From positions 1 through 37,349 of IMG/VR virus record IMGVR_UViG_3300028326_000014: a DNA stretch of 37,349 nt; one strand, given 5' to 3'. The position numbers and the translations under genes are program-made. Of this stretch, positions 1 to 37,349 are shown piece after piece (position 1 is the stretch's first letter; every line of letters starts with the position of its first letter). The notes below the pieces were generated by a model. That model was not told where the DNA came from. It saw only the letters and a program-made list of their open reading frames with translations, and made no database searches. The DNA is from a virus (Duplodnaviria > Caudoviricetes).

Positions 1-43
1 CGGGGCGTGGCGCAGACTGGTAGCGCGCCTGCTTTGGGAGCAG
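1..43 (+). pseudogene. 5' half of tRNA-Pro(TGG), truncated in the 3' strand of the anticodon stem by the phage left end
   Basis: CGGGGCG acceptor 5' strand, TG, D-arm GCGC-AGACTGGTA-GCGC, anticodon arm CCTGC-TTTGGGA-GCAG. The sequence then continues with TGT; no T-arm or 3' acceptor strand follows. Confidence 0.9.
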
Positions 44-53
44 TGTGGGGAGT

Positions 54-218: not shown

Positions 219-1007
219 CTAGCGCACGTACTCCCGGCAGCTCCAGACCACCCGGCCTATGATCCGAACCATATCGGCCAAGTCGCCGGCCATATCGACC
301 TCGATTGGATCGTACCGTTCATTCCGGCTGCGGAAAACGAGCTTCCCTGGCAAGGCATGGACGTATTTGACCAGCACGCTTGAATCTATTCCCACCGCAT
401 ACAGCCCACCGGATATGATTTCATTCTGACTTTCGTCAATCAGTACAGAATCGGAATCCATCAGGACCGGCTCCATGCTGTCGCCTGTGACATCCATCAG
501 GACCATTCGTGACGGATGCCCCTTGCGATGCAGGAAATCCGTCTTGAACGCGTAGAGCCCAACGACAGCCCCCTCGGTCTCCAGGCTTCCTGTTCCGGCC
601 GAGAGTCGCGCCCGGACCTTGGGAATGAGGCTAAATCCCTTCTCTGCCGCCTCTTTCGCGCTCATCCATTGCGGTTCGCCTTCCGGGATGATGCCCGGTT
701 TTTGCTCTGATTCCGGGGCAAGTTGGGCGTGCTCACGCTGCACTGGGCCAGAGCCAAAGAGCAACCAGTCCGACGATACACCAAACCTCCTGGCAATATC
801 GATAACCCAGCCTGGGGGAATCTCTTTTTTGCTCTTAGCTGCTGAAATAGTTGACTGTCTCAACCCTAGCGCCTGTGATAGCTCCGTGTCTGTCTTGGTT
901 TTTGTCGCGACTTTAAGTCGGTTGAAGACGTCAAGGAAGTCAGTTGCATATTTTGAGGCCGAATATGCAACTGAATTTGCAACTTTATCTGCTTCAGGGG
1001 TATTCAT
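219..1007 (-). CDS. CI-like phage repressor (HTH + S24 peptidase)
   Basis: N-terminal HTH (TDTELSQALGLRQSTISAAK), SAG cleavage-site motif, GDSMEP catalytic Ser, VKY Lys, IIGRVVW. Start moved to ATG 1007 (MNTPE). Confidence 0.9.
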   Translation of the reverse strand: MNTPEADKVANSVAYSASKYATDFLDVFNRLKVATKTKTDTELSQALGLRQSTISAAKSKKEIPPGWVIDIARRFGVSSDWLLFGSGPVQREHAQLAPESEQKPGIIPEGEPQWMSAKEAAEKGFSLIPKVRARLSAGTGSLETEGAVVGLYAFKTDFLHRKGHPSRMVLMDVTGDSMEPVLMDSDSVLIDESQNEIISGGLYAVGIDSSVLVKYVHALPGKLVFRSRNERYDPIEVDMAGDLADMVRIIGRVVWSCREYVR

Positions 1008-1143
1008 TTTTTGCAAGTTATCCAAGGTATTTGGCAAGTTTTTGTCATAAAACTTGGAAAAATGAATTTGCAACCTGCGAAAACTGTTGACCGGTATCAA
1101 TTTGGGCAGTATTTCTACCCTCAAGCGGTCAACAGATTGACCG
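942..1143. promoter_or_regulatory. Divergent immunity control region: repeated operator-like boxes and probable early promoter
   Basis: TGAATTTGCAAC at 972-983 and 1063-1074; GAATATGCAAC at 961-971 with an inverted copy at about 942-953; TTGACC(1087-1092)-17-TATTTC; palindrome CGGTCAA-CAGA-TTGACCG at 1126-1143. Confidence 0.55.
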
Positions 1144-1971: not shown

Positions 1972-2472
1972 ATGAGATTTCAGGCGGAAGATAGCAGGCG
2001 TCTCGGGCTGTCCGTTGCAAGGTTTGAAAGGGAGGCGATGCTTCGTGGAGAAAAAGACCCAAAGGCCGGTCCTTTCTTTGGGTTTTTCTTGAAAACAATC
2101 AATTTGAACAGAATCGAAAGGACGCTTGAAGGAGCCATGGAGCGTTGCAAGTATGTCCCGATTGTTTGCATACAGCTTAAGGCTGGTCATGGACTTAATC
2201 GAACAAGATTCCCGGAAGTTGCGTTCGACGGAAGGTATGCAGAGTATGACTACATCGGAATACGCGATGGGATGTTACTTGTTGGTGTTCGATTTTGGAG
2301 AAAACGTGGTGTTTACTTTCATATAAGACTCATTCCTTTGGACGGCATTGAGGCTCTGTCTGTTGGTTACGAGGCCAAATGGCGCAAGGCTGTGCATGAA
2401 AGAACGCGGCTGCGCGAAAAATATCCGGCAACCACCTCGTCGATGACGAGTGAAAGGCGGGTGACGCAATGA
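1972..2472 (+). CDS. Hypothetical protein, lower GC
   Basis: Strong SD AAGGAGG; 166-aa ORF; no recognisable motif. Confidence 0.7.
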   Translation: MRFQAEDSRRLGLSVARFEREAMLRGEKDPKAGPFFGFFLKTINLNRIERTLEGAMERCKYVPIVCIQLKAGHGLNRTRFPEVAFDGRYAEYDYIGIRDGMLLVGVRFWRKRGVYFHIRLIPLDGIEALSVGYEAKWRKAVHERTRLREKYPATTSSMTSERRVTQ

Positions 2473-2669
2473 GCAGACGGAAGCGGTTGACCGGGAAGGC
2501 GGAAGAGATGCGGCAGATTGCCCAGGTTTTGCGGCAAAACAAGTTGCCGGAAACGGCGATTCGGGCAGCACTTCTCGGTTTCTGCGGCGTCGGGATACTG
2601 ATGGTTGATAACGGCAGCTCGTATGCCTGGTCCCGTACTATGCAGGAATTCCTTGGGGAAGAGAACTAG
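2469..2669 (+). CDS. Hypothetical protein
   Basis: ATGA overlap with the upstream gene; 66 aa. Confidence 0.6.
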   Translation: MSRRKRLTGKAEEMRQIAQVLRQNKLPETAIRAALLGFCGVGILMVDNGSSYAWSRTMQEFLGEEN

Positions 2670-2673
2670 CCAT

Positions 2674-2735
2674 TGCGAAACCGCCCCGCGCGGGCGGTCG
2701 TCGGACGGTGGCGCGTCCGGCCTGATGAGCAGCCA
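2674..2735 (+). ncRNA. Type II hammerhead ribozyme, copy 1
   Basis: GAAA 2677-2680; stem III ACCGCCC/GGGCGGT; GTC cleavage triplet 2697-2699; stem I GTCGGACG/CGTCCGGC; CTGATGA 2722-2728; stem II TGC/GCA; loop I TGGC can pair with 3' GCCA (pseudoknot). Confidence 0.9.
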
Positions 2736-2745
2736 AGGAAAAAAC

Positions 2746-2979
2746 TTACGTTATATTGATGTCCGGGAAGCAATGAGGACACAGGCTCATAGGGAATTCA
2801 GAGTTTGCCATATTTTTGATGTAACTGTGGAGCATTTCTTCAGAGTCAAACGGGATTACCCACCAATTCGCCATTTTGTTTTTGTTGAGATTGCATGAGT
2901 AGGTGAGCCGAGTTGCGGAATGAGCTTCGCCAGAAGTTGGATTATAAATAAAAATATCATGAAATTCTGTGTTCAACAT
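2746..2979 (-). CDS. AT-rich accessory (moron-like) protein, 77 aa, C-terminal CxxC
   Basis: SD AAGGAG before the ATG; candidate own promoter TTGTAA(3057-3052)-18-TAGGGT; low GC. Confidence 0.65.
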   Translation of the reverse strand: MLNTEFHDIFIYNPTSGEAHSATRLTYSCNLNKNKMANWWVIPFDSEEMLHSYIKNMANSEFPMSLCPHCFPDINIT

Positions 2980-3076
2980 TTCCGCGTCTCCTTTGCGGGT
3001 TGACGGTTGGATGAACGGGTGACGGAAACCCTATCAGGGGACGCGGAACCTTTACAAGCGGACGGACGGCGGCACG

Positions 3077-5224
3077 ATGCAAGACAAGTACACGGCACAG
3101 GACATTGGAACGGCGCTCGGCGTGTCACGCCAGAGGGCCGAAACCAAGGCAAAAAAGGACGGCTGGCTTTACGAAGAGATGCCGTCGCCTGGCCGTGGCG
3201 GCAAGCGCCGACTGTTCCTCTTCGCCTCCCTGCCCAAAGACGTGCAGCGCGCCCTGTCCGCACACGAGGCGGGGGCGAAGCCCGAGCAGTTGCCGGCCGC
3301 CGTCACCGACCAGAACCGCGTCCAGGCGCTGCTTGCCCGATTCCAGGCCGCCCCGGAATGGAGCCGCCAGCGGGCCGAGACCCGCTTGGCCATCCTCAAG
3401 GCGTTTGAAACCTTCATCGCCTGGACCGGTATGGGCAGGGGCCGGGCCGAACGGGAATTCTCCGAACGCTACGCGCGTTGCGAGGCCCCGGGCGTTCCCT
3501 TGGACGCCTACCGCGAAGAAAAATCACTCTCCCCGGGGACCATCCGCCGCTGGCGCGGCGACTACAAGCGCGACGGCCTGGCCGGACTGCTCTCCGAACA
3601 CGGAACCAACGCCGGCACGCAGCCGTCCGTCTCACCTGAAGCGAGAATTTTCCTCCTGGCCCACCTCCAGGCCAAGCCCCTCATCCGGCCGGCCAAGCTG
3701 CTGGAACTGGTTGAAGGGGAACTCAAGGACGCCGCCCCCTCCCGGGCCAGCGTTTACCGCTTCGTCAAGAAATTCAAGAAGGACAACCCGGAACTCTACG
3801 CGCTGCTCGAAGACCCGCGCAAATGGAAAAACGGCTACCTCGCCGCCTTCGGCGACGCCGCCCACGACGTGACCCATTTCTGCCACACCTGGGAAGCCGA
3901 TTCGACCAAAAACGACGTCATCACCGCCGACGGCAAGCGGTGCGCCATCATCATGGTCATCGACGTCTATTCCGGCCGCAAAAAGATGGTGGTGGCCCCC
4001 GTGACCCGCAGTCTGGCCGTGGCCGCCTGCCTCCGGAAGTGCTTCCTGGACTGGGGCATCGTCAAACGGCTGCGCACGGACAACGGCAAGGACTACACGT
4101 CCCGGCACATCACGGCCATTTTGACGGCCTTCGGCATCGACCCGAAGCTGTGCAGAAAGTACCAGGGCCAGGAAAAGCCTTTTGTCGAGCGCGGGTTGCA
4201 GACCTATCTGCACGACCTGGTCGAGCTGATGCCGGGCTATTGCGGACACAGCGTCGGCGAGCGGCAGGCCTTGCGGGAACAGGCCGTCTGGGCGGCCAAG
4301 ATCATGGAGCCCGGCAATGAAGCCGTGGAAATCCCCTACACGTTGGCCGAGATGCAGGTCTTTGTCGACCGGTGGGTGATCCGGGACGAAACTAAACCCC
4401 GCAAGAAGTTCGGCGGACGCTCGCCCCTGGAGGTCAGCCAGGCCAGCCCGCGCCAGCCCGAGGCGATCACAAATCCCCGTGTCCTGGACATCCTGCTTGC
4501 CCCGGTGGCCACGCCGACCGTCGGCAAGAAGGGCATCACCCTGGACAGCGGCCACTATTCCGCGCCCGAGCTGGTGGACTACATCGGCTGCAAGGTCGAC
4601 GTGCGCCGCGATCTGCTCGACGCCGGCACGATCTATGTTTTTGACAAGTCGGACGGCAAGCTCCGCTATGTCTGTACCGCCGAGGACAAGGCCCTGACCG
4701 GACTTAAGCTGGAAGCCTATCTGGCGGCGCGCAAGGCCAAGGAGCGGCGTCTCAAGGACACCGTGCGGGCGCTGCGGACCCTCTCCGAAACAGTGGAAGA
4801 CCCGCTGACGGTGCTGCTGCCCACGGGCGAGCTGAAGCCGCCCAAGGTGGTGGGCCTGCGCCCCGAGACCAAGGCTCCGGCCGTGCTTGAGGCCAAAAAG
4901 GCCCTCGAAACGCCTGAAAAACCCCTGGGCCTGGCCCAGGAAATGGACCTCACGCCTGAACCAGCGCTGCCGGAAAACGTGGTGCGAGTGGCTTTTGCCA
5001 AGGATGCCGCGCCCGAGCCCGCCTCCGATGCGGACCGCCCCTATTTCGAGAAGTCCATCGACGCATGGGACTGGCTTTGCGAGCAGGAAGCCATGCGCCG
5101 TCTGGCCCCTGACGAAGTGGAGTGGAAGGACACCCTGCTCATCAACTTCGGGCCGCAAATCCAGGCCATCTTGCGGCTTCGCGCCGACAACGAAGGCCGC
5201 GAGAATCTCAAAAGGAGCTTTTGA
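3077..5224 (+). CDS. muA: Mu-type DDE transposase A
   Basis: N-terminal Mu HTH (YTAQDIG...GRGGKRRLFLFASLP); catalytic core WEADST, IDVYS, LRTDNGKDY, KPFVER; Mu C-terminal beta domain. Confidence 0.95.
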   Translation: MQDKYTAQDIGTALGVSRQRAETKAKKDGWLYEEMPSPGRGGKRRLFLFASLPKDVQRALSAHEAGAKPEQLPAAVTDQNRVQALLARFQAAPEWSRQRAETRLAILKAFETFIAWTGMGRGRAEREFSERYARCEAPGVPLDAYREEKSLSPGTIRRWRGDYKRDGLAGLLSEHGTNAGTQPSVSPEARIFLLAHLQAKPLIRPAKLLELVEGELKDAAPSRASVYRFVKKFKKDNPELYALLEDPRKWKNGYLAAFGDAAHDVTHFCHTWEADSTKNDVITADGKRCAIIMVIDVYSGRKKMVVAPVTRSLAVAACLRKCFLDWGIVKRLRTDNGKDYTSRHITAILTAFGIDPKLCRKYQGQEKPFVERGLQTYLHDLVELMPGYCGHSVGERQALREQAVWAAKIMEPGNEAVEIPYTLAEMQVFVDRWVIRDETKPRKKFGGRSPLEVSQASPRQPEAITNPRVLDILLAPVATPTVGKKGITLDSGHYSAPELVDYIGCKVDVRRDLLDAGTIYVFDKSDGKLRYVCTAEDKALTGLKLEAYLAARKAKERRLKDTVRALRTLSETVEDPLTVLLPTGELKPPKVVGLRPETKAPAVLEAKKALETPEKPLGLAQEMDLTPEPALPENVVRVAFAKDAAPEPASDADRPYFEKSIDAWDWLCEQEAMRRLAPDEVEWKDTLLINFGPQIQAILRLRADNEGRENLKRSF

Positions 5225-5907
5225 TGCGCAACAAGTTTGTGGAGACGGCCAACGTGTCCGCGTTTGTCGAGGCGGCCGGTAGCCTGGAACGCACCGAGGC
5301 CGGCGTGCCGGGACTGGCGTTGGTGCATGGCATGCGCGGTCTGGGCAAGACCCGTACGGCGATCTGGTATGCCAGCCAGAACGGCTCGGTCTATGTGCGG
5401 AGCAAGTCCTTGTGGTCGCCGAAATGGATGCTGGAAGAACTGGCCATAGAACTGGGCTTGACGCCGGCAAAGCACAAAAAGGACCTGTTCATGGGGGTGA
5501 TGGAAGAGCTGCGCCAGCGGCCCAGGCTCGTCATCATCGACGAGTCCAACATGCCGCCAACGACCTGCCTGGACGCCATCCGCGACCTGCATGACCTGAC
5601 CGAAAATCCTTTCCTGCTTATCGGACACGAAGGCATCGTGAGCCGCCTCAAGCGCATGGGGCCGTTTTTCGACCGCTTCCTCTACATCACGGAATTCAAG
5701 CCCCTGTCCACCAAGGACCTGGACTCGTTTTGCCGGACCTGCATGGAAATCCCGGTGGACGAAGACGTGATCGGGAAAGTGGTTGAACGCACGGGCGGCA
5801 ACTTCCGCAAGTCCATCGTGGCGTTCAAAGGCTTGGAAAACCGGGCCAAGATGAACGGCTCCAAGCGGATCACGGTCAAGGAAACCCGGGAGCGGGAGGC
5901 ATCATAG
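5224..5907 (+). CDS. muB: Transposition ATPase B (AAA+)
   Basis: Walker A GMRGLGKT, Walker B LVIIDE, IRDLHD, GGNFR; TGATG coupling to A. Confidence 0.92.
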   Translation: MRNKFVETANVSAFVEAAGSLERTEAGVPGLALVHGMRGLGKTRTAIWYASQNGSVYVRSKSLWSPKWMLEELAIELGLTPAKHKKDLFMGVMEELRQRPRLVIIDESNMPPTTCLDAIRDLHDLTENPFLLIGHEGIVSRLKRMGPFFDRFLYITEFKPLSTKDLDSFCRTCMEIPVDEDVIGKVVERTGGNFRKSIVAFKGLENRAKMNGSKRITVKETREREAS

Positions 5908-5908
5908 C

Positions 5909-6703
5909 ATGCGGCCCGATTCCCGCCAACGCATGTGGACGGTAGTCCGCAAACTGCCGCCGCCCGTGGCGGCGGAGGATGTCGAGCAGCTCGCCGACGT
6001 CTCCGTGGCGGAAGCCGAGGCTTTCTTGGCGGAACTGGTGGCGTCAGGTCGTCTGATTCTCCGGAGTAACGGCTACATGCTGCTTAAGGACCATGGGCCG
6101 CTTGCGCCTGCGAGCGAACAGACCTCGGTATCTCTCCCGGGAAAGCTGTCGGCGGCGGCGCGGGAGTTGGAAGGTCAGGCCGGGCCGATGCTGGTTCTGG
6201 AAGCCGTGCTGGCAATCCTGCCGGGGCTGGAAACGGTATCATTGGCCGAGGCCATGGCCGCGACCGGCTTGCCGCGTCGCAAGGTGTTGCGCGTGCTCGA
6301 CAAGCTCGCGGCCGAGGGACGGTTGGAGCTGATCGAGGACACCCGCCCGTCCAGCCCGGTCGGGAAACCCGGCCCGGTGCCGCGAGAGCCGACTTACCGC
6401 GTGGTGGCAACGGCCCATCCGGCTGCGCGGCCGGTCATGCGGCATGCCGATGCGTCACGGGACCGGGCTTGGGCGGCCATGCGCCGGTTACGCCGGTTCA
6501 CCCGGGCGGACGTGGTGGATTTATGCGGCTGTCATCCCGATGTGGCGGACGACCTGGTCAAATTATTGGAACGCAACGGCTACCTGGAGTGTATCGGCTT
6601 CCAGGAGCGCCGCCGGAAGGTGATGGTGCTGGTCCGCGATCCCGGACCGGTCCGGCCCCGAACACCCCAACCGAGAAGTAAGGAGGAGAAAGTCAATGGC
6701 TAG
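5909..6703 (+). CDS. Multi-winged-HTH hypothetical early protein
   Basis: Repeated segments RQRMWTVVRKL / RDRAWAAMRRLRRFT; position after MuB. Confidence 0.7.
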   Translation: MRPDSRQRMWTVVRKLPPPVAAEDVEQLADVSVAEAEAFLAELVASGRLILRSNGYMLLKDHGPLAPASEQTSVSLPGKLSAAARELEGQAGPMLVLEAVLAILPGLETVSLAEAMAATGLPRRKVLRVLDKLAAEGRLELIEDTRPSSPVGKPGPVPREPTYRVVATAHPAARPVMRHADASRDRAWAAMRRLRRFTRADVVDLCGCHPDVADDLVKLLERNGYLECIGFQERRRKVMVLVRDPGPVRPRTPQPRSKEEKVNG

Positions 6704-7229
6704 GGAAAAACCGAAAGTAACGGTGCTGGCGGACCTCAAGGAGGCCGACGCGGCCCTGGCCGAACTGGCGGGGCTGCGGCGCGATCTGGCTGCCGTGGAA
6801 GGCGTCATGAACGACGCCATCGACACCATCAAGGCCGAGGCCAAGGCCCAATCCACGCCGTTGACCGCCCGGGTCAAGGACCTGGAGGCGGCACTGGCCA
6901 ATTTCGCCGTGGCCCGCAAGGCCGAACTGTTCCCAAAGAAAAAGTCACTGGAAATGACCTTCGGGCTGTTTGGGTTTCGCCAGTCCAGCAAGCTCAAGAC
7001 GTTGGCAAAATGGACCTGGAAACTGGTGCTGGAGCGACTCCAGGAGCTGGCCGCCGATCCCGAGGGAAGACCCTACAGTGAGGCGCTGCGGACCAAGGTC
7101 GAGGTGGACAAGGAACAGATGCGCGACTGGCCCGAAGACCGGTTGGCAGCCGTCGGCGTCCACAAGGTGGCGGAGGACGAGTTTTATTACGAATTAAAAA
7201 GTGAGGAATTGAAGGAGGATGCGGCATAG
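6696..7229 (+). CDS. gam: Host-nuclease inhibitor Gam family protein
   Basis: Coiled-coil N-terminus, KKSLEMTFGLFGFRQS, LRTKVEVDKE, EDEFYYE; strong SD. Confidence 0.88.
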   Translation: MAREKPKVTVLADLKEADAALAELAGLRRDLAAVEGVMNDAIDTIKAEAKAQSTPLTARVKDLEAALANFAVARKAELFPKKKSLEMTFGLFGFRQSSKLKTLAKWTWKLVLERLQELAADPEGRPYSEALRTKVEVDKEQMRDWPEDRLAAVGVHKVAEDEFYYELKSEELKEDAA

Positions 7230-7232
7230 TCC

Positions 7233-7294
7233 TGCGAAACCGCCCCGCGCGGGCGGTCGTCGGACGGTGGCGCGTCCGGCCTGATGAGCAGCCA
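7233..7294 (+). ncRNA. Type II hammerhead ribozyme, copy 2
   Basis: Identical to copy 1 (67-bp exact repeat 2674-2740 / 7233-7299); GTC 7256-7258; CTGATGA 7281-7287. Confidence 0.9.
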
Positions 7295-7305
7295 AGGAAT
7301 CAACC

Positions 7306-7740
7306 ATGCGGATCTACATCGCCTCATCCTGGCGCAACCAGCACGCCGTGGAACTGCTCTCCGACCTCCTGGAGGACAACGGCCACACCGTGGTGTCCTG
7401 GATCGAGGAGTGGCGGCGGAATGAGGGGCCTGCCGTGTCCGTCCACCTGGATCAGGACGCCTGGATCGAGTCCCCGGCCGGCCATGCTCGGTTTCGCTTC
7501 GACCTCGACGGCGCTTGCCGCTCCGATCTTGTCATCTACCTCGGCCCTGCGGGCACGGACGCCTGGGCCGAGGTCGGCGCGGCCTTTGCCTGCGACGTGC
7601 CGGTAGTCGGCCTGTGGGCCAAGGGCGAGCGTGCCGGCCTCATGCGGCGGATGGTCTCCCGATGGTTCACGGATCACCGGGAATTGCTGCGATTTCTGGA
7701 GGAGGCCGGCGAGGCCGACGCCGAACGGCTAGCGGGGTAA
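7306..7740 (+). CDS. Nucleoside 2-deoxyribosyltransferase-like protein
   Basis: IYIASS, FDLDGACRSDLVI, GTDAWAEVGAAFA (catalytic-type Glu), PVVGL; SD AGGA. Confidence 0.7.
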   Translation: MRIYIASSWRNQHAVELLSDLLEDNGHTVVSWIEEWRRNEGPAVSVHLDQDAWIESPAGHARFRFDLDGACRSDLVIYLGPAGTDAWAEVGAAFACDVPVVGLWAKGERAGLMRRMVSRWFTDHRELLRFLEEAGEADAERLAG

Positions 7741-36348: not shown

Positions 36349-36525
36349 ATGCGGGAGATCCGTTGCGGAGAGTGTAACAAGTTGTTGGCCAAAGGGGAGG
36401 CACTCAACCTCTCCATTAAGTGCCCCAGATGTGGGGCCATGAATCTCCTGAGGGCCGCGAGCCCCGGACAAGAGCCCCAAGAGGCCCCATCAGGAGATCG
36501 AGTTGTATGTCGGGAGTCTGTTTAG
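36349..36525 (+). CDS. com: Com-like zinc-finger translational activator (58 aa, absent from the ORF track)
   Basis: MREIRCGECNKLLAKG...IKCPRCGAMN; overlaps the start of the downstream modification gene as in Mu. Confidence 0.92.
   Translation: MREIRCGECNKLLAKGEALNLSIKCPRCGAMNLLRAASPGQEPQEAPSGDRVVCRESV
36443..36498 (+). promoter_or_regulatory. Hairpin occluding the methyltransferase SD, with four GAGNNCC boxes
   Basis: ATCTCCTGA 36443-36451 pairs with TCAGGAGAT 36490-36498; GAGNNCC at 36450, 36459, 36472 and 36481. Confidence 0.75.
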
Positions 36526-37258
36526 CGGGGCTGGATTGGGCGACATCGCCGTCGAAGCGATCGGTCTTTCTCATGCCTGGTTTTGCGAGTGTGACCCATT
36601 TGCCCGCGCCGTTTTGGCGCGCCGTTGGCCGGATGTCCCGGTCTATCACGATGTGAGGGACATCCATGGCCAAGACGTCAAACCTGTCGATATCGTCATC
36701 GGTGGCTTCCCCTGTCAGGACATCAGTTGCGCCGGAAGCGGAGCAGGACTTGCGGGCAAGCGATCCGGCTTGTGGTTCGAGTATGCCCGCATCATTCGCG
36801 AGCTACGACCGCAATACGCGGTCGTGGAAAACGTCAAAGCGCTTCTCGGGCGGGGGCTCCACAGAGTTCTCGGAGATTTGGCCGAGATCGGGTATGATGC
36901 GGAGTGGGACGTGTTCCCGGCGGCCGCCTTTGGCGCCCCGCATTTGCGCGAGAGGCTTATCCTTGTTGCCTACTCCGGTGGCGATCGAGGGGCAGCCGGT
37001 GCGCCAATACTTGCGCCGGGAGGAAACCTGGCAATCCACCGGCAACCTGACGGCCCGGTTGATTGGAATGGTCTACGGCTTGCGGGAGCGCGATCCCAGG
37101 CCGCCGTATCGTCTTATCGTGGCCCCGTCGTTTGTCGAGTGGATGATGGGGGTGCCCATTGGCTGGACCGACTTAGATGTCTCGGCAACGGCATCACGCC
37201 TCCTGTCCTGCTGTGGCTCCTCGAAAGGATCATGATCGCGGACAGGATGGCCGCCTAG
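36503..37258 (+). CDS. C5-cytosine DNA methyltransferase, main (alpha-type) polypeptide
   Basis: SLFSGAG (I), GGFPCQD (IV), VENV (VI), PHLRERL (VIII), RLRCLGNG (X); TTG start with SD AGGAG. Confidence 0.92.
   Translation: MYVGSLFSGAGLGDIAVEAIGLSHAWFCECDPFARAVLARRWPDVPVYHDVRDIHGQDVKPVDIVIGGFPCQDISCAGSGAGLAGKRSGLWFEYARIIRELRPQYAVVENVKALLGRGLHRVLGDLAEIGYDAEWDVFPAAAFGAPHLRERLILVAYSGGDRGAAGAPILAPGGNLAIHRQPDGPVDWNGLRLAGARSQAAVSSYRGPVVCRVDDGGAHWLDRLRCLGNGITPPVLLWLLERIMIADRMAA
36666..37235 (+). CDS. Nested alternative-frame ORF, probable beta polypeptide of the methyltransferase
   Basis: 189 aa wholly inside the MTase gene; WPRSGMM, LLPTP, and motif-IX-like PSFVEWMMGVPIGWTD; GAGG upstream of the ATG. 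Confidence 0.75.
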   Translation: MAKTSNLSISSSVASPVRTSVAPEAEQDLRASDPACGSSMPASFASYDRNTRSWKTSKRFSGGGSTEFSEIWPRSGMMRSGTCSRRPPLAPRICARGLSLLPTPVAIEGQPVRQYLRREETWQSTGNLTARLIGMVYGLRERDPRPPYRLIVAPSFVEWMMGVPIGWTDLDVSATASRLLSCCGSSKGS

Positions 37259-37265
37259 AAAATAG

Positions 37266-37335
37266 CAACCAAAATGAGAAATCGGAGAGGCCTAGGCTGT
37301 CTCACTTTGCTTGATACGATTTCTCATTTTGGTTG
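37266..37335. repeat. Right-end transposase-binding sites R3 (37266-37284, inverted), R2 (37300-37313), R1 (37317-37335)
   Basis: R1 and R3 are a perfect 19-bp inverted pair (CAACCAAAATGAGAAATCG); R2 matches the L1/L3 variant; R1 starts 10 bp from the terminus, like L1. Confidence 0.88.
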
Positions 37336-37349
37336 TGCGCTTACAAGGC

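What the first reader, a model, noticed from the sequence alone, without database searches (positions are those of the whole stretch)
2674..7299. Two identical hammerhead ribozymes bracket the transposition module (A-B-HTH-gam)
Seen: an exact 67-bp direct repeat (2674-2740, 7233-7299), each copy 3-4 nt after a stop codon. Each has the full hammerhead core (GAAA, GUC, CUGAUGA), stems I and III, a short stem II and a loop-I/3'-tail pseudoknot. Known: type II hammerheads occur in phages and leave 5'-OH and 2',3'-cyclic phosphate ends. Inference: double cleavage (after 2699 and 7258) would excise a 4559-nt RNA carrying MuA, MuB, the wHTH gene and gam. Its ends suit RtcB-type ligation, so a circular or separately stabilised transposition mRNA is possible; ligation would rebuild one intact ribozyme. 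This would be RNA-level control of transposase dosage.
Basis: partly seen in the sequence, partly recalled or inferred. Interest (0 to 1): 0.88.

Follow-up and report, generated by a model that had tools for sequence, protein, structure and literature searches.

The report
Hammerhead ribozymes punctuating Mu-like early operon
Two identical self-cutting hammerhead RNA sequences sit at gene junctions on either side of the transposase genes of a Mu-like prophage and likely cut its long early message into pieces, an arrangement already described for prophages; most relatives carry only the downstream copy, so a dedicated excised or circular transposase message is unlikely.

Summary
Observation confirmed: an exact 67-bp repeat (2674-2740, 7233-7299), both copies Rfam Hammerhead_II above cut-off, in the early operon of a Mu-like prophage. 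Cuts are predicted after 2699 and 7258.

The arrangement is in print. Clustered hammerheads flank prophage gene blocks, and circles were sought and not found (PMC3088659). Mu-like genes are the strongest ribozyme association, reason unknown (PMC10085705). Desulfovibrio type II hammerheads cleave in cells (PMC8782182).

In relatives the bracket is optional: of 176 protein-selected Mu-like clusters, 54 have only a downstream hammerhead, 7 both, 0 upstream only, 115 none. Paired copies elsewhere are 81-92% identical, and this exact allele occurs in other phages. The ribozyme typically sits between a stop codon and the next ribosome-binding site, at swappable accessory-gene slots.

Best reading: gene-junction processing of the early transcript; the bracket is a by-product. 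Circle about 6%. No RNA data were available. This scan found similar cases before on other DNA.

The parts
2674..2740 (+). Type II hammerhead ribozyme, upstream (facultative) copy; predicted cut after 2699; SD-like AAGGA at 2735-2739 with no start codon behind it
7233..7299 (+). Type II hammerhead ribozyme, downstream copy in the position usual for Mu-like phages; predicted cut after 7258; its tail AAGGA (7294-7298) is the SD of the gene starting at 7306
2469..2669 (+). 66-aa accessory ORF whose stop lies 4 nt before copy 1; no PHROG or Pfam family
2746..2979 (-). 77-aa low-GC leftward ORF with AGGAG SD at 2988-2992; swappable accessory gene between copy 1 and MuA; no Pfam family
2982..3046 (.). 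Conserved 11-bp hairpin (2982-2992 with 3036-3046) just upstream of the MuA start; also holds the SD of the leftward ORF
3077..5224 (+). MuA-type DDE transposase, 715 aa (phrog_310; rve, Mu-transpos_C)
5224..5907 (+). MuB-type AAA ATPase (phrog_296, AAA_22); start overlaps the MuA stop
5909..6703 (+). Putative transcriptional regulator (phrog_2030; no Pfam hit)
6696..7229 (+). Mu Gam-like end-protection protein; stop lies 3 nt before copy 2
7306..7740 (+). Nucleoside deoxyribosyltransferase-like accessory gene (phrog_12607), travels with the ribozyme in relatives
219..1124 (-). CI-like repressor; the early operon diverges from it

Best explanation
These are two canonical type II hammerhead ribozymes at gene junctions of a Mu-like prophage's early operon, and they likely cut the long early transcript into separate mRNAs; they enclose the transposase block probably because swappable accessory-gene slots lie on both sides of it. 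Shown: sequence, fold family, position between a stop codon and the next gene, and the distribution in relatives. Inferred: co-transcriptional cleavage after 2699 and 7258. Each upstream piece would end in the stem III hairpin with a 2',3'-cyclic phosphate 30-29 nt after its stop. Each downstream piece would begin with a 5'-OH, the stem I hairpin and pseudoknot, followed in copy 2 directly by the SD of the next gene. This would uncouple decay and translation of the accessory genes from the A-B-gam core. The downstream cut is the usual one; the upstream copy is gained and lost. The shared 60-nt sequence likely also serves as a crossover point for swapping flanking genes.
For: Rfam match and covariation: 97.8% of cells paired, 13 of 21 pairs with changes on both sides in 62 sequences. 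59 of the 80 IMG/VR pattern loci with long flanks have a Mu A, B or Gam hit. In 176 protein-selected clusters: 54 downstream only, 7 both (1 with a decayed upstream copy), 0 upstream only, 115 none, 0 on the opposite strand; first downstream copy 4.6-8.6 kb after the A start. Of 234 distinct contexts, 202 have an ORF stop within -8..+5 nt (random positions 58 of 702), 139 an SD plus start within 45 nt (86 of 702), 116 both (11 of 702); the 139 downstream ORFs fall into 84 families. Homology with relatives starts or stops at the ribozyme: L296 and L372 share ribozyme plus NDT gene but not the upstream gene; L369 and L401 share gam and resume only at about 8195. DNA contigs of one sample enter and leave the ribozyme with many different flanks. 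Literature.
Against: No RNA evidence for this phage. The random-position control is generous, since any intergenic element in a compact operon lies near a stop. 115 of 176 clusters have no such hammerhead, and 15 such loci scanned with Rfam (12, 3 of the 11) showed no other ribozyme class, so the cut is dispensable. In E. coli a twister cut in a 5' UTR did not change mRNA or protein level when the SD was free (PMC5052635), so a benefit is not guaranteed. Copy 2 is predicted to misfold with the gam 3' end on naked RNA (stem I probability 0.0, 0.98 when the upstream part is held unpaired). Breakpoints at a conserved island do not prove recombination there.
Confidence: 0.6

Rival explanations
1. 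The pair is selected as a unit to release a linear A-B-gam mRNA with its own half-life, setting transposase dosage after transcription.
For: The bracket recurs in 10 of 232 clusters including this one. In L289, L312, L314, L326 and L316/L317 the upstream copy lies about 75-110 nt before the transposase start and supplies or abuts its SD; L093 has the same layout. An upstream copy was never seen without a downstream one (0 of 232).
Against: 105 of the 115 hammerhead-bearing clusters lack the upstream copy, and it is decayed in L293. Here copy 1 is 377 nt from the A start and separated from it by a leftward accessory gene; in L290, L368 and L369 it heads a different small gene. None of the 39 hammerhead loci among 160 MuA-selected loci has an upstream copy, 37 of them with over 700 nt of upstream DNA.
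Confidence: 0.17
2. The 4559-nt fragment is closed by host RtcB (or by the ribozyme itself) into a circular transposition mRNA.
For: The ends (5'-OH, 2',3'-cyclic phosphate) suit RtcB (established chemistry, recalled). RtcB is present in 4 of 4 genomes carrying related prophages. Identical copies would give a perfect junction.
Against: Perreault et al. could detect neither spliced nor circular products for clustered prophage hammerheads (data not shown there). The halves are held only by the 3-bp stem II, and a junction rebuilds a ribozyme that can cut again. The pair is not conserved, and partners elsewhere are 81-92% identical. The prophage has no RtcB, which is also common in bacteria without such phages (10 of 14 controls).
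Confidence: 0.06
3. The element matters mainly as a DNA homology anchor or near-neutral passenger of accessory-gene cassettes, and cleavage has little effect on the phage; copy 1 is a leftover of a cassette whose gene was replaced.
For: The exact allele is shared by phages with unrelated transposases while median identity among copies is about 75%. Copy 1 keeps an SD-like tail with no gene behind it. Gene content changes at its edges.
Against: Stems covary, as selection on RNA structure predicts. All copies are on the transcribed strand (0 opposite). Desulfovibrio vulgaris copies do cleave in cells. The core columns were fixed by my search pattern, so their invariance in A2 is no evidence.
Confidence: 0.17

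Closest known systems
Clustered hammerheads flanking genes or gene blocks in prophages (Perreault et al. 2011, PMC3088659; passages and section 6 read, Figure 3 itself not visible)
   Same: Type II fold with loop-I/tail pseudoknot; several copies flanking variable gene blocks; proposed processing into operon- or gene-length mRNAs; circles considered and not detected.
   Different: Here the enclosed block is the essential A-B-gam core (4.6 kb) rather than small accessory genes, and the two copies are identical. I could not see whether their Figure 3 shows such a case.
Self-cleaving ribozymes enriched beside Mu-like phage genes (stated in PMC10085705, one passage read, citing Roth 2014 and Weinberg 2015, which I did not read)
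   Same: Hammerheads in the early region of a Mu-like phage; purpose unknown.
   Different: This work adds a positional map: sense strand, downstream of A-B in all bearers, upstream copy optional.
Desulfovibrio vulgaris type II hammerheads loc 1-3 (Olzog et al. 2021, PMC8782182; passages of text and supplement read)
   Same: Same class, near phage-like genes in a host group likely related to this phage's host; cleavage ends captured from cells (start/end analysis inconclusive for loc 2).
   Different: Their close pair is about 310 nt apart and cannot enclose a transposase; no function was assigned.
Retrozymes and viroid-like circular RNAs with tandem hammerheads (PMC6155905, passages read)
   Same: Two same-strand hammerheads flanking a segment.
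   Different: Those are small (600-1000 nt) non-coding circles; the plant ones described there use type III folds. Here the segment is a 4.6-kb polycistron, the fold is type II and the pair is not conserved.

Membership tests
Type II hammerhead ribozyme (RF02276) | Score above the Rfam gathering threshold over the whole model | tested here: met
   64.2 and 63.7 bits vs 37, model 1-66/66
Type II hammerhead ribozyme (RF02276) | Catalytic core CUGANGA, GAAA, UH | tested here: met
   CUGAUGA 2722-2728, GAAA 2677-2680, GUC 2697-2699; same +4559
Type II hammerhead ribozyme (RF02276) | Stems I and III closed by loops, stem II open and short | tested here: met
   8-bp stem I, 7-bp stem III, 3-bp stem II; covariation in 62 sequences
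Type II hammerhead ribozyme (RF02276) | Pseudoknot between loop I and 3' tail | tested here: met
   UGGC with GCCA; 96.4% of cells paired in A2 but no change on both sides, and the tail was fixed by my pattern
Type II hammerhead ribozyme (RF02276) | Site-specific self-cleavage | not testable with these tools
   No RNA run listed; copy 2 may misfold in naked context
Mu-like transposable phage | DDE transposase A, AAA ATPase B, Gam, divergent repressor, Com | tested here: met
Mu-like transposable phage | TG...CA ends with repeated transposase sites (feature recalled) | tested here: met
   TG at 44-45, CA at 37344-37345, related AAAATGAGAAAT-type repeats at both ends; another strain has a different flank at 43
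Mu-like transposable phage | 5-bp target duplication (feature recalled) | tested here: inconclusive
   Only 4 nt of right flank, which do not repeat the left flank
Ribozyme-made circular RNA element (retrozyme or viroid-like) | Tandem same-strand ribozymes flanking the unit | tested here: met
Ribozyme-made circular RNA element (retrozyme or viroid-like) | Both ribozymes kept across relatives | tested here: not met
   7 of 61 hammerhead-bearing protein-selected clusters have both
Ribozyme-made circular RNA element (retrozyme or viroid-like) | Junction-spanning circular RNA | not testable with these tools
   No RNA holder listed

The most novel reading that the evidence does not exclude
On induction the two ribozymes excise the A-B-regulator-gam block and host RtcB closes it into a 4.56-kb circular mRNA that can be re-opened by its own junction ribozyme, giving RNA-level control of transposase dosage; the bracket has arisen more than once among Mu-like phages for this purpose.
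Probability: 0.06. Interest if true: 0.85.

Novelty: new member of a known kind. Interest (0 to 1): 0.3.

Why it matters
Why Mu-like phages carry self-cleaving ribozymes is an acknowledged open question. This locus does not answer it, but the comparison narrows it: the ribozyme is always on the sense strand, always present downstream of A-B in bearers, usually wedged between a stop and the next SD, and optional upstream. Natural pairs of close phages with and without the upstream copy give a ready comparison. If a circular or dosage-setting transposase mRNA were shown, it would be a natural ribozyme-made coding circle in a DNA phage, which my nine literature searches did not turn up.

Tried and rejected
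Expression: no RNA holder listed among 24 runs; this says nothing either way.

Empty searches: no match in annotated GenBank phages. Single-protein locus searches found nothing; alignments worked. My first pattern had a wrong spacer, and one pair count used wrong columns (corrected in 94).

DNA deletion or DNA circle between the repeats: no joint of the 2699/7259 type among those listed. Contigs break at the repeat and drop rare variants, so absence is not shown. Joints ending at 7231-7233 are ambiguous between the two identical copies.

Assembly chimera across the repeat: exact contigs link 2709-3005 in 3 of 4 runs, and exact pieces on both sides have similar depth (about 4-6). No listed contig bridges a whole copy, so a chimera is not excluded.

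Translation-gated cleavage as a general rule: rejected. Stem I probability was under 0.1 in 22 of 227 contexts with free upstream RNA and 20 of 227 with it masked, and the gam junctions of L369 and L401 fold well.

Replacement by another ribozyme class: none at gathering score in the 15 hammerhead-less loci scanned.

Promoters and terminators: counts at chance level, so the operon's continuity is inferred from gene packing.

Atlas search of the 77-aa ORF gave leads below 0.9 only.

Rows dropped before counts: one search kept loci with at least 450 nt of transposase match, 700 nt upstream and 6500 nt from the A start (322 loci, 288 clusters, 232 kept). One search kept 234 contexts with score 25 or more and enough flank. 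One search left out 4 overlapping loci.
Full report
Observation. The two stretches 2674-2740 and 7233-7299 are identical over 67 nt and 4559 nt apart. Both match Rfam Hammerhead_II over the whole model at 64.2 and 63.7 bits against a cut-off of 37. All core residues, stems I-III and the loop-I/tail pseudoknot are present, and the GUC triplets end at 2699 and 7258. In an alignment of 62 related copies, 97.8% of cells pair and 13 of 21 pairs change on both sides, all in stems I and III. The core and tail columns were fixed by my search pattern and carry no weight.

Setting. The window is a Mu-like prophage: repressor on the minus strand, then a rightward early operon with a regulator, a short ner-position ORF (no family hit), two accessory ORFs, copy 1, MuA, MuB, a putative regulator, gam, copy 2 and further small genes, followed by head and tail genes, com and a methyltransferase. 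Ends TG (44) and CA (37345) are visible. The best named transposase relatives are from Desulfovibrio and Desulfovibrionaceae at 43-47% identity, so such a host is likely (inference).

What is known. Perreault et al. 2011 describe multiple hammerheads flanking single genes or blocks in prophages, show cleavage of three clusters in vitro and one in E. coli, propose processing into shorter mRNAs, and report that spliced or circular products could not be detected (figure not visible). A 2023 paper states that the strongest gene associations of bacterial hammerheads and twisters are Mu-like phage genes, reason unknown. A 2019 review calls the bacterial role largely elusive. Olzog et al. 2021 captured cleavage ends of three type II hammerheads near phage-like genes in Desulfovibrio vulgaris cells. 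Three earlier notes of this scan describe similar cases on other DNA; one led me to the Olzog paper.

Distribution. To avoid selecting on the ribozyme I fetched 160 loci by transposase and 79 new loci by the gene upstream of ner, and searched them with my own model and a profile. After clustering at 95% in A and requiring flanks, 176 clusters remain: 54 downstream only, 7 both, 0 upstream only, 115 none, none on the opposite strand. Adding ribozyme-selected loci and 40 genome stretches gives 232 clusters: 105, 10, 0 and 117. One of the 'both' cases (L293) has lost the 5' part of stem III in its upstream copy. Among the 10 closest relatives by that gene (56-82% identity) all have the downstream copy, 2 an intact upstream copy, 1 the decayed one and 7 none.

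Identity of the copies. In the eight other intact brackets compared, the copies are 81-92% identical. The window's 60-nt core occurs letter for letter in L298 (transposase 25% identical to ours) and L115, and DNA contigs of one sample run into and out of near-identical copies with many different flanks. Identity therefore reflects a circulating allele or a recent duplication, not a requirement.

Local grammar. Of 234 distinct contexts, 202 follow a stop within -8..+5 nt, 139 precede an SD and start within 45 nt, and 116 do both, against 58, 86 and 11 of 702 random positions; the following ORFs belong to 84 families. The control is generous, since intergenic elements are near stops anyway. Copy 2 fits fully: its tail is the SD of the gene at 7306. 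Copy 1 keeps the SD-like tail but is followed by the 3' end of a leftward 77-aa ORF. The interval from ner to about 2976 is variable among relatives, and similarity to relatives begins or ends at the ribozyme. In a second group (L312, L314, L316/317, L326) and in L289 and L093 the upstream copy lies directly before the transposase, which keeps a dosage role possible.

Mechanism. Shown: structure, position, distribution. Inferred: cleavage during transcription, giving upstream pieces a hairpin and cyclic phosphate just behind the stop and downstream pieces a 5'-OH hairpin before the SD. Whether this stabilises or destabilises is unknown. The glmS cut leads to decay, a twister cut in an E. coli 5' UTR had no effect, and protection of 5'-OH ends from RNase E is recalled, not tested. 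Copy 2 is predicted to misfold with the gam 3' end unless that part is occupied; this is not general across the family.

Circle. Hosts of related prophages have RtcB (4 of 4) and the phage does not. The cleaved halves are held by stem II alone (complex -30.9 vs -27.8 to -28.3 kcal/mol apart, tertiary contacts not modelled), a junction would rebuild a cleavable ribozyme, the pair is rarely kept, and the one published search was negative. No RNA run was available. I put it at about 6%.

Verdict. A real, well-formed example of a known and unexplained arrangement: a new member of a known kind. The bracket around A-B-gam recurs but is optional and best read as a by-product of accessory slots on both sides of the core. 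Interest 0.3. Supplements of Perreault 2011 (alignments, gene contexts) were not searched and could already list such a bracket.

Noticed in passing
window 2746-3046: Conserved 11-bp hairpin (2982-2992/3036-3046) about 30 nt before the MuA start; 97% of cells paired, 2 of 11 pairs with compensatory changes in 9 sequences. On the minus strand it holds an AGGAG SD and ATG opening a swappable leftward ORF: 61-184 aa, GC 0.38-0.55, several unrelated families, in all 10 distinct elements found; L295 has two in tandem. No Rfam match. Looks like a leader for accessory genes expressed antisense to the transposase leader.
   Followed up: partly
L019:4912-12506 (minus strand): A 57-kb phage contig with no Mu A, B or Gam hit in this stretch carries 24 type II hammerheads in 7.6 kb, roughly one before each small gene, many with the same SD-bearing tail: a ribozyme-punctuated gene array.
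   Followed up: partly
L131:4981-5053, L131:6097-6164, L212:11339-11408: The int-alpA RNA motif (RF02996) lies 3.7-4.8 kb after the transposase start in two hammerhead-less Mu-like loci, near or within the range where hammerheads usually sit; a possible functional stand-in, untested.
   Followed up: partly
window 1-45 and 37260-37349: Bases 1-43 are the 5' part of a host tRNA-Pro interrupted by the phage's left end (TG at 44); the right end (CA at 37344-37345) and end repeats are present, so the prophage looks complete despite a 72% completeness estimate. Another strain has a different flank at 43.
   Followed up: partly
window 7200-7280: The gam 3' end is predicted to pair with stem I of copy 2, about 8 kcal/mol better than the ribozyme fold, so this copy may cut only while gam is translated; not conserved in L369 or L401.
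   Followed up: yes
window 36349-37258: Mu Com-like zinc ribbon followed by a DNA methyltransferase gene at the right end, where Mu has mom; two overlapping frames (36503-37258, 36666-37235) both hit methyltransferase PHROGs.
   Followed up: no
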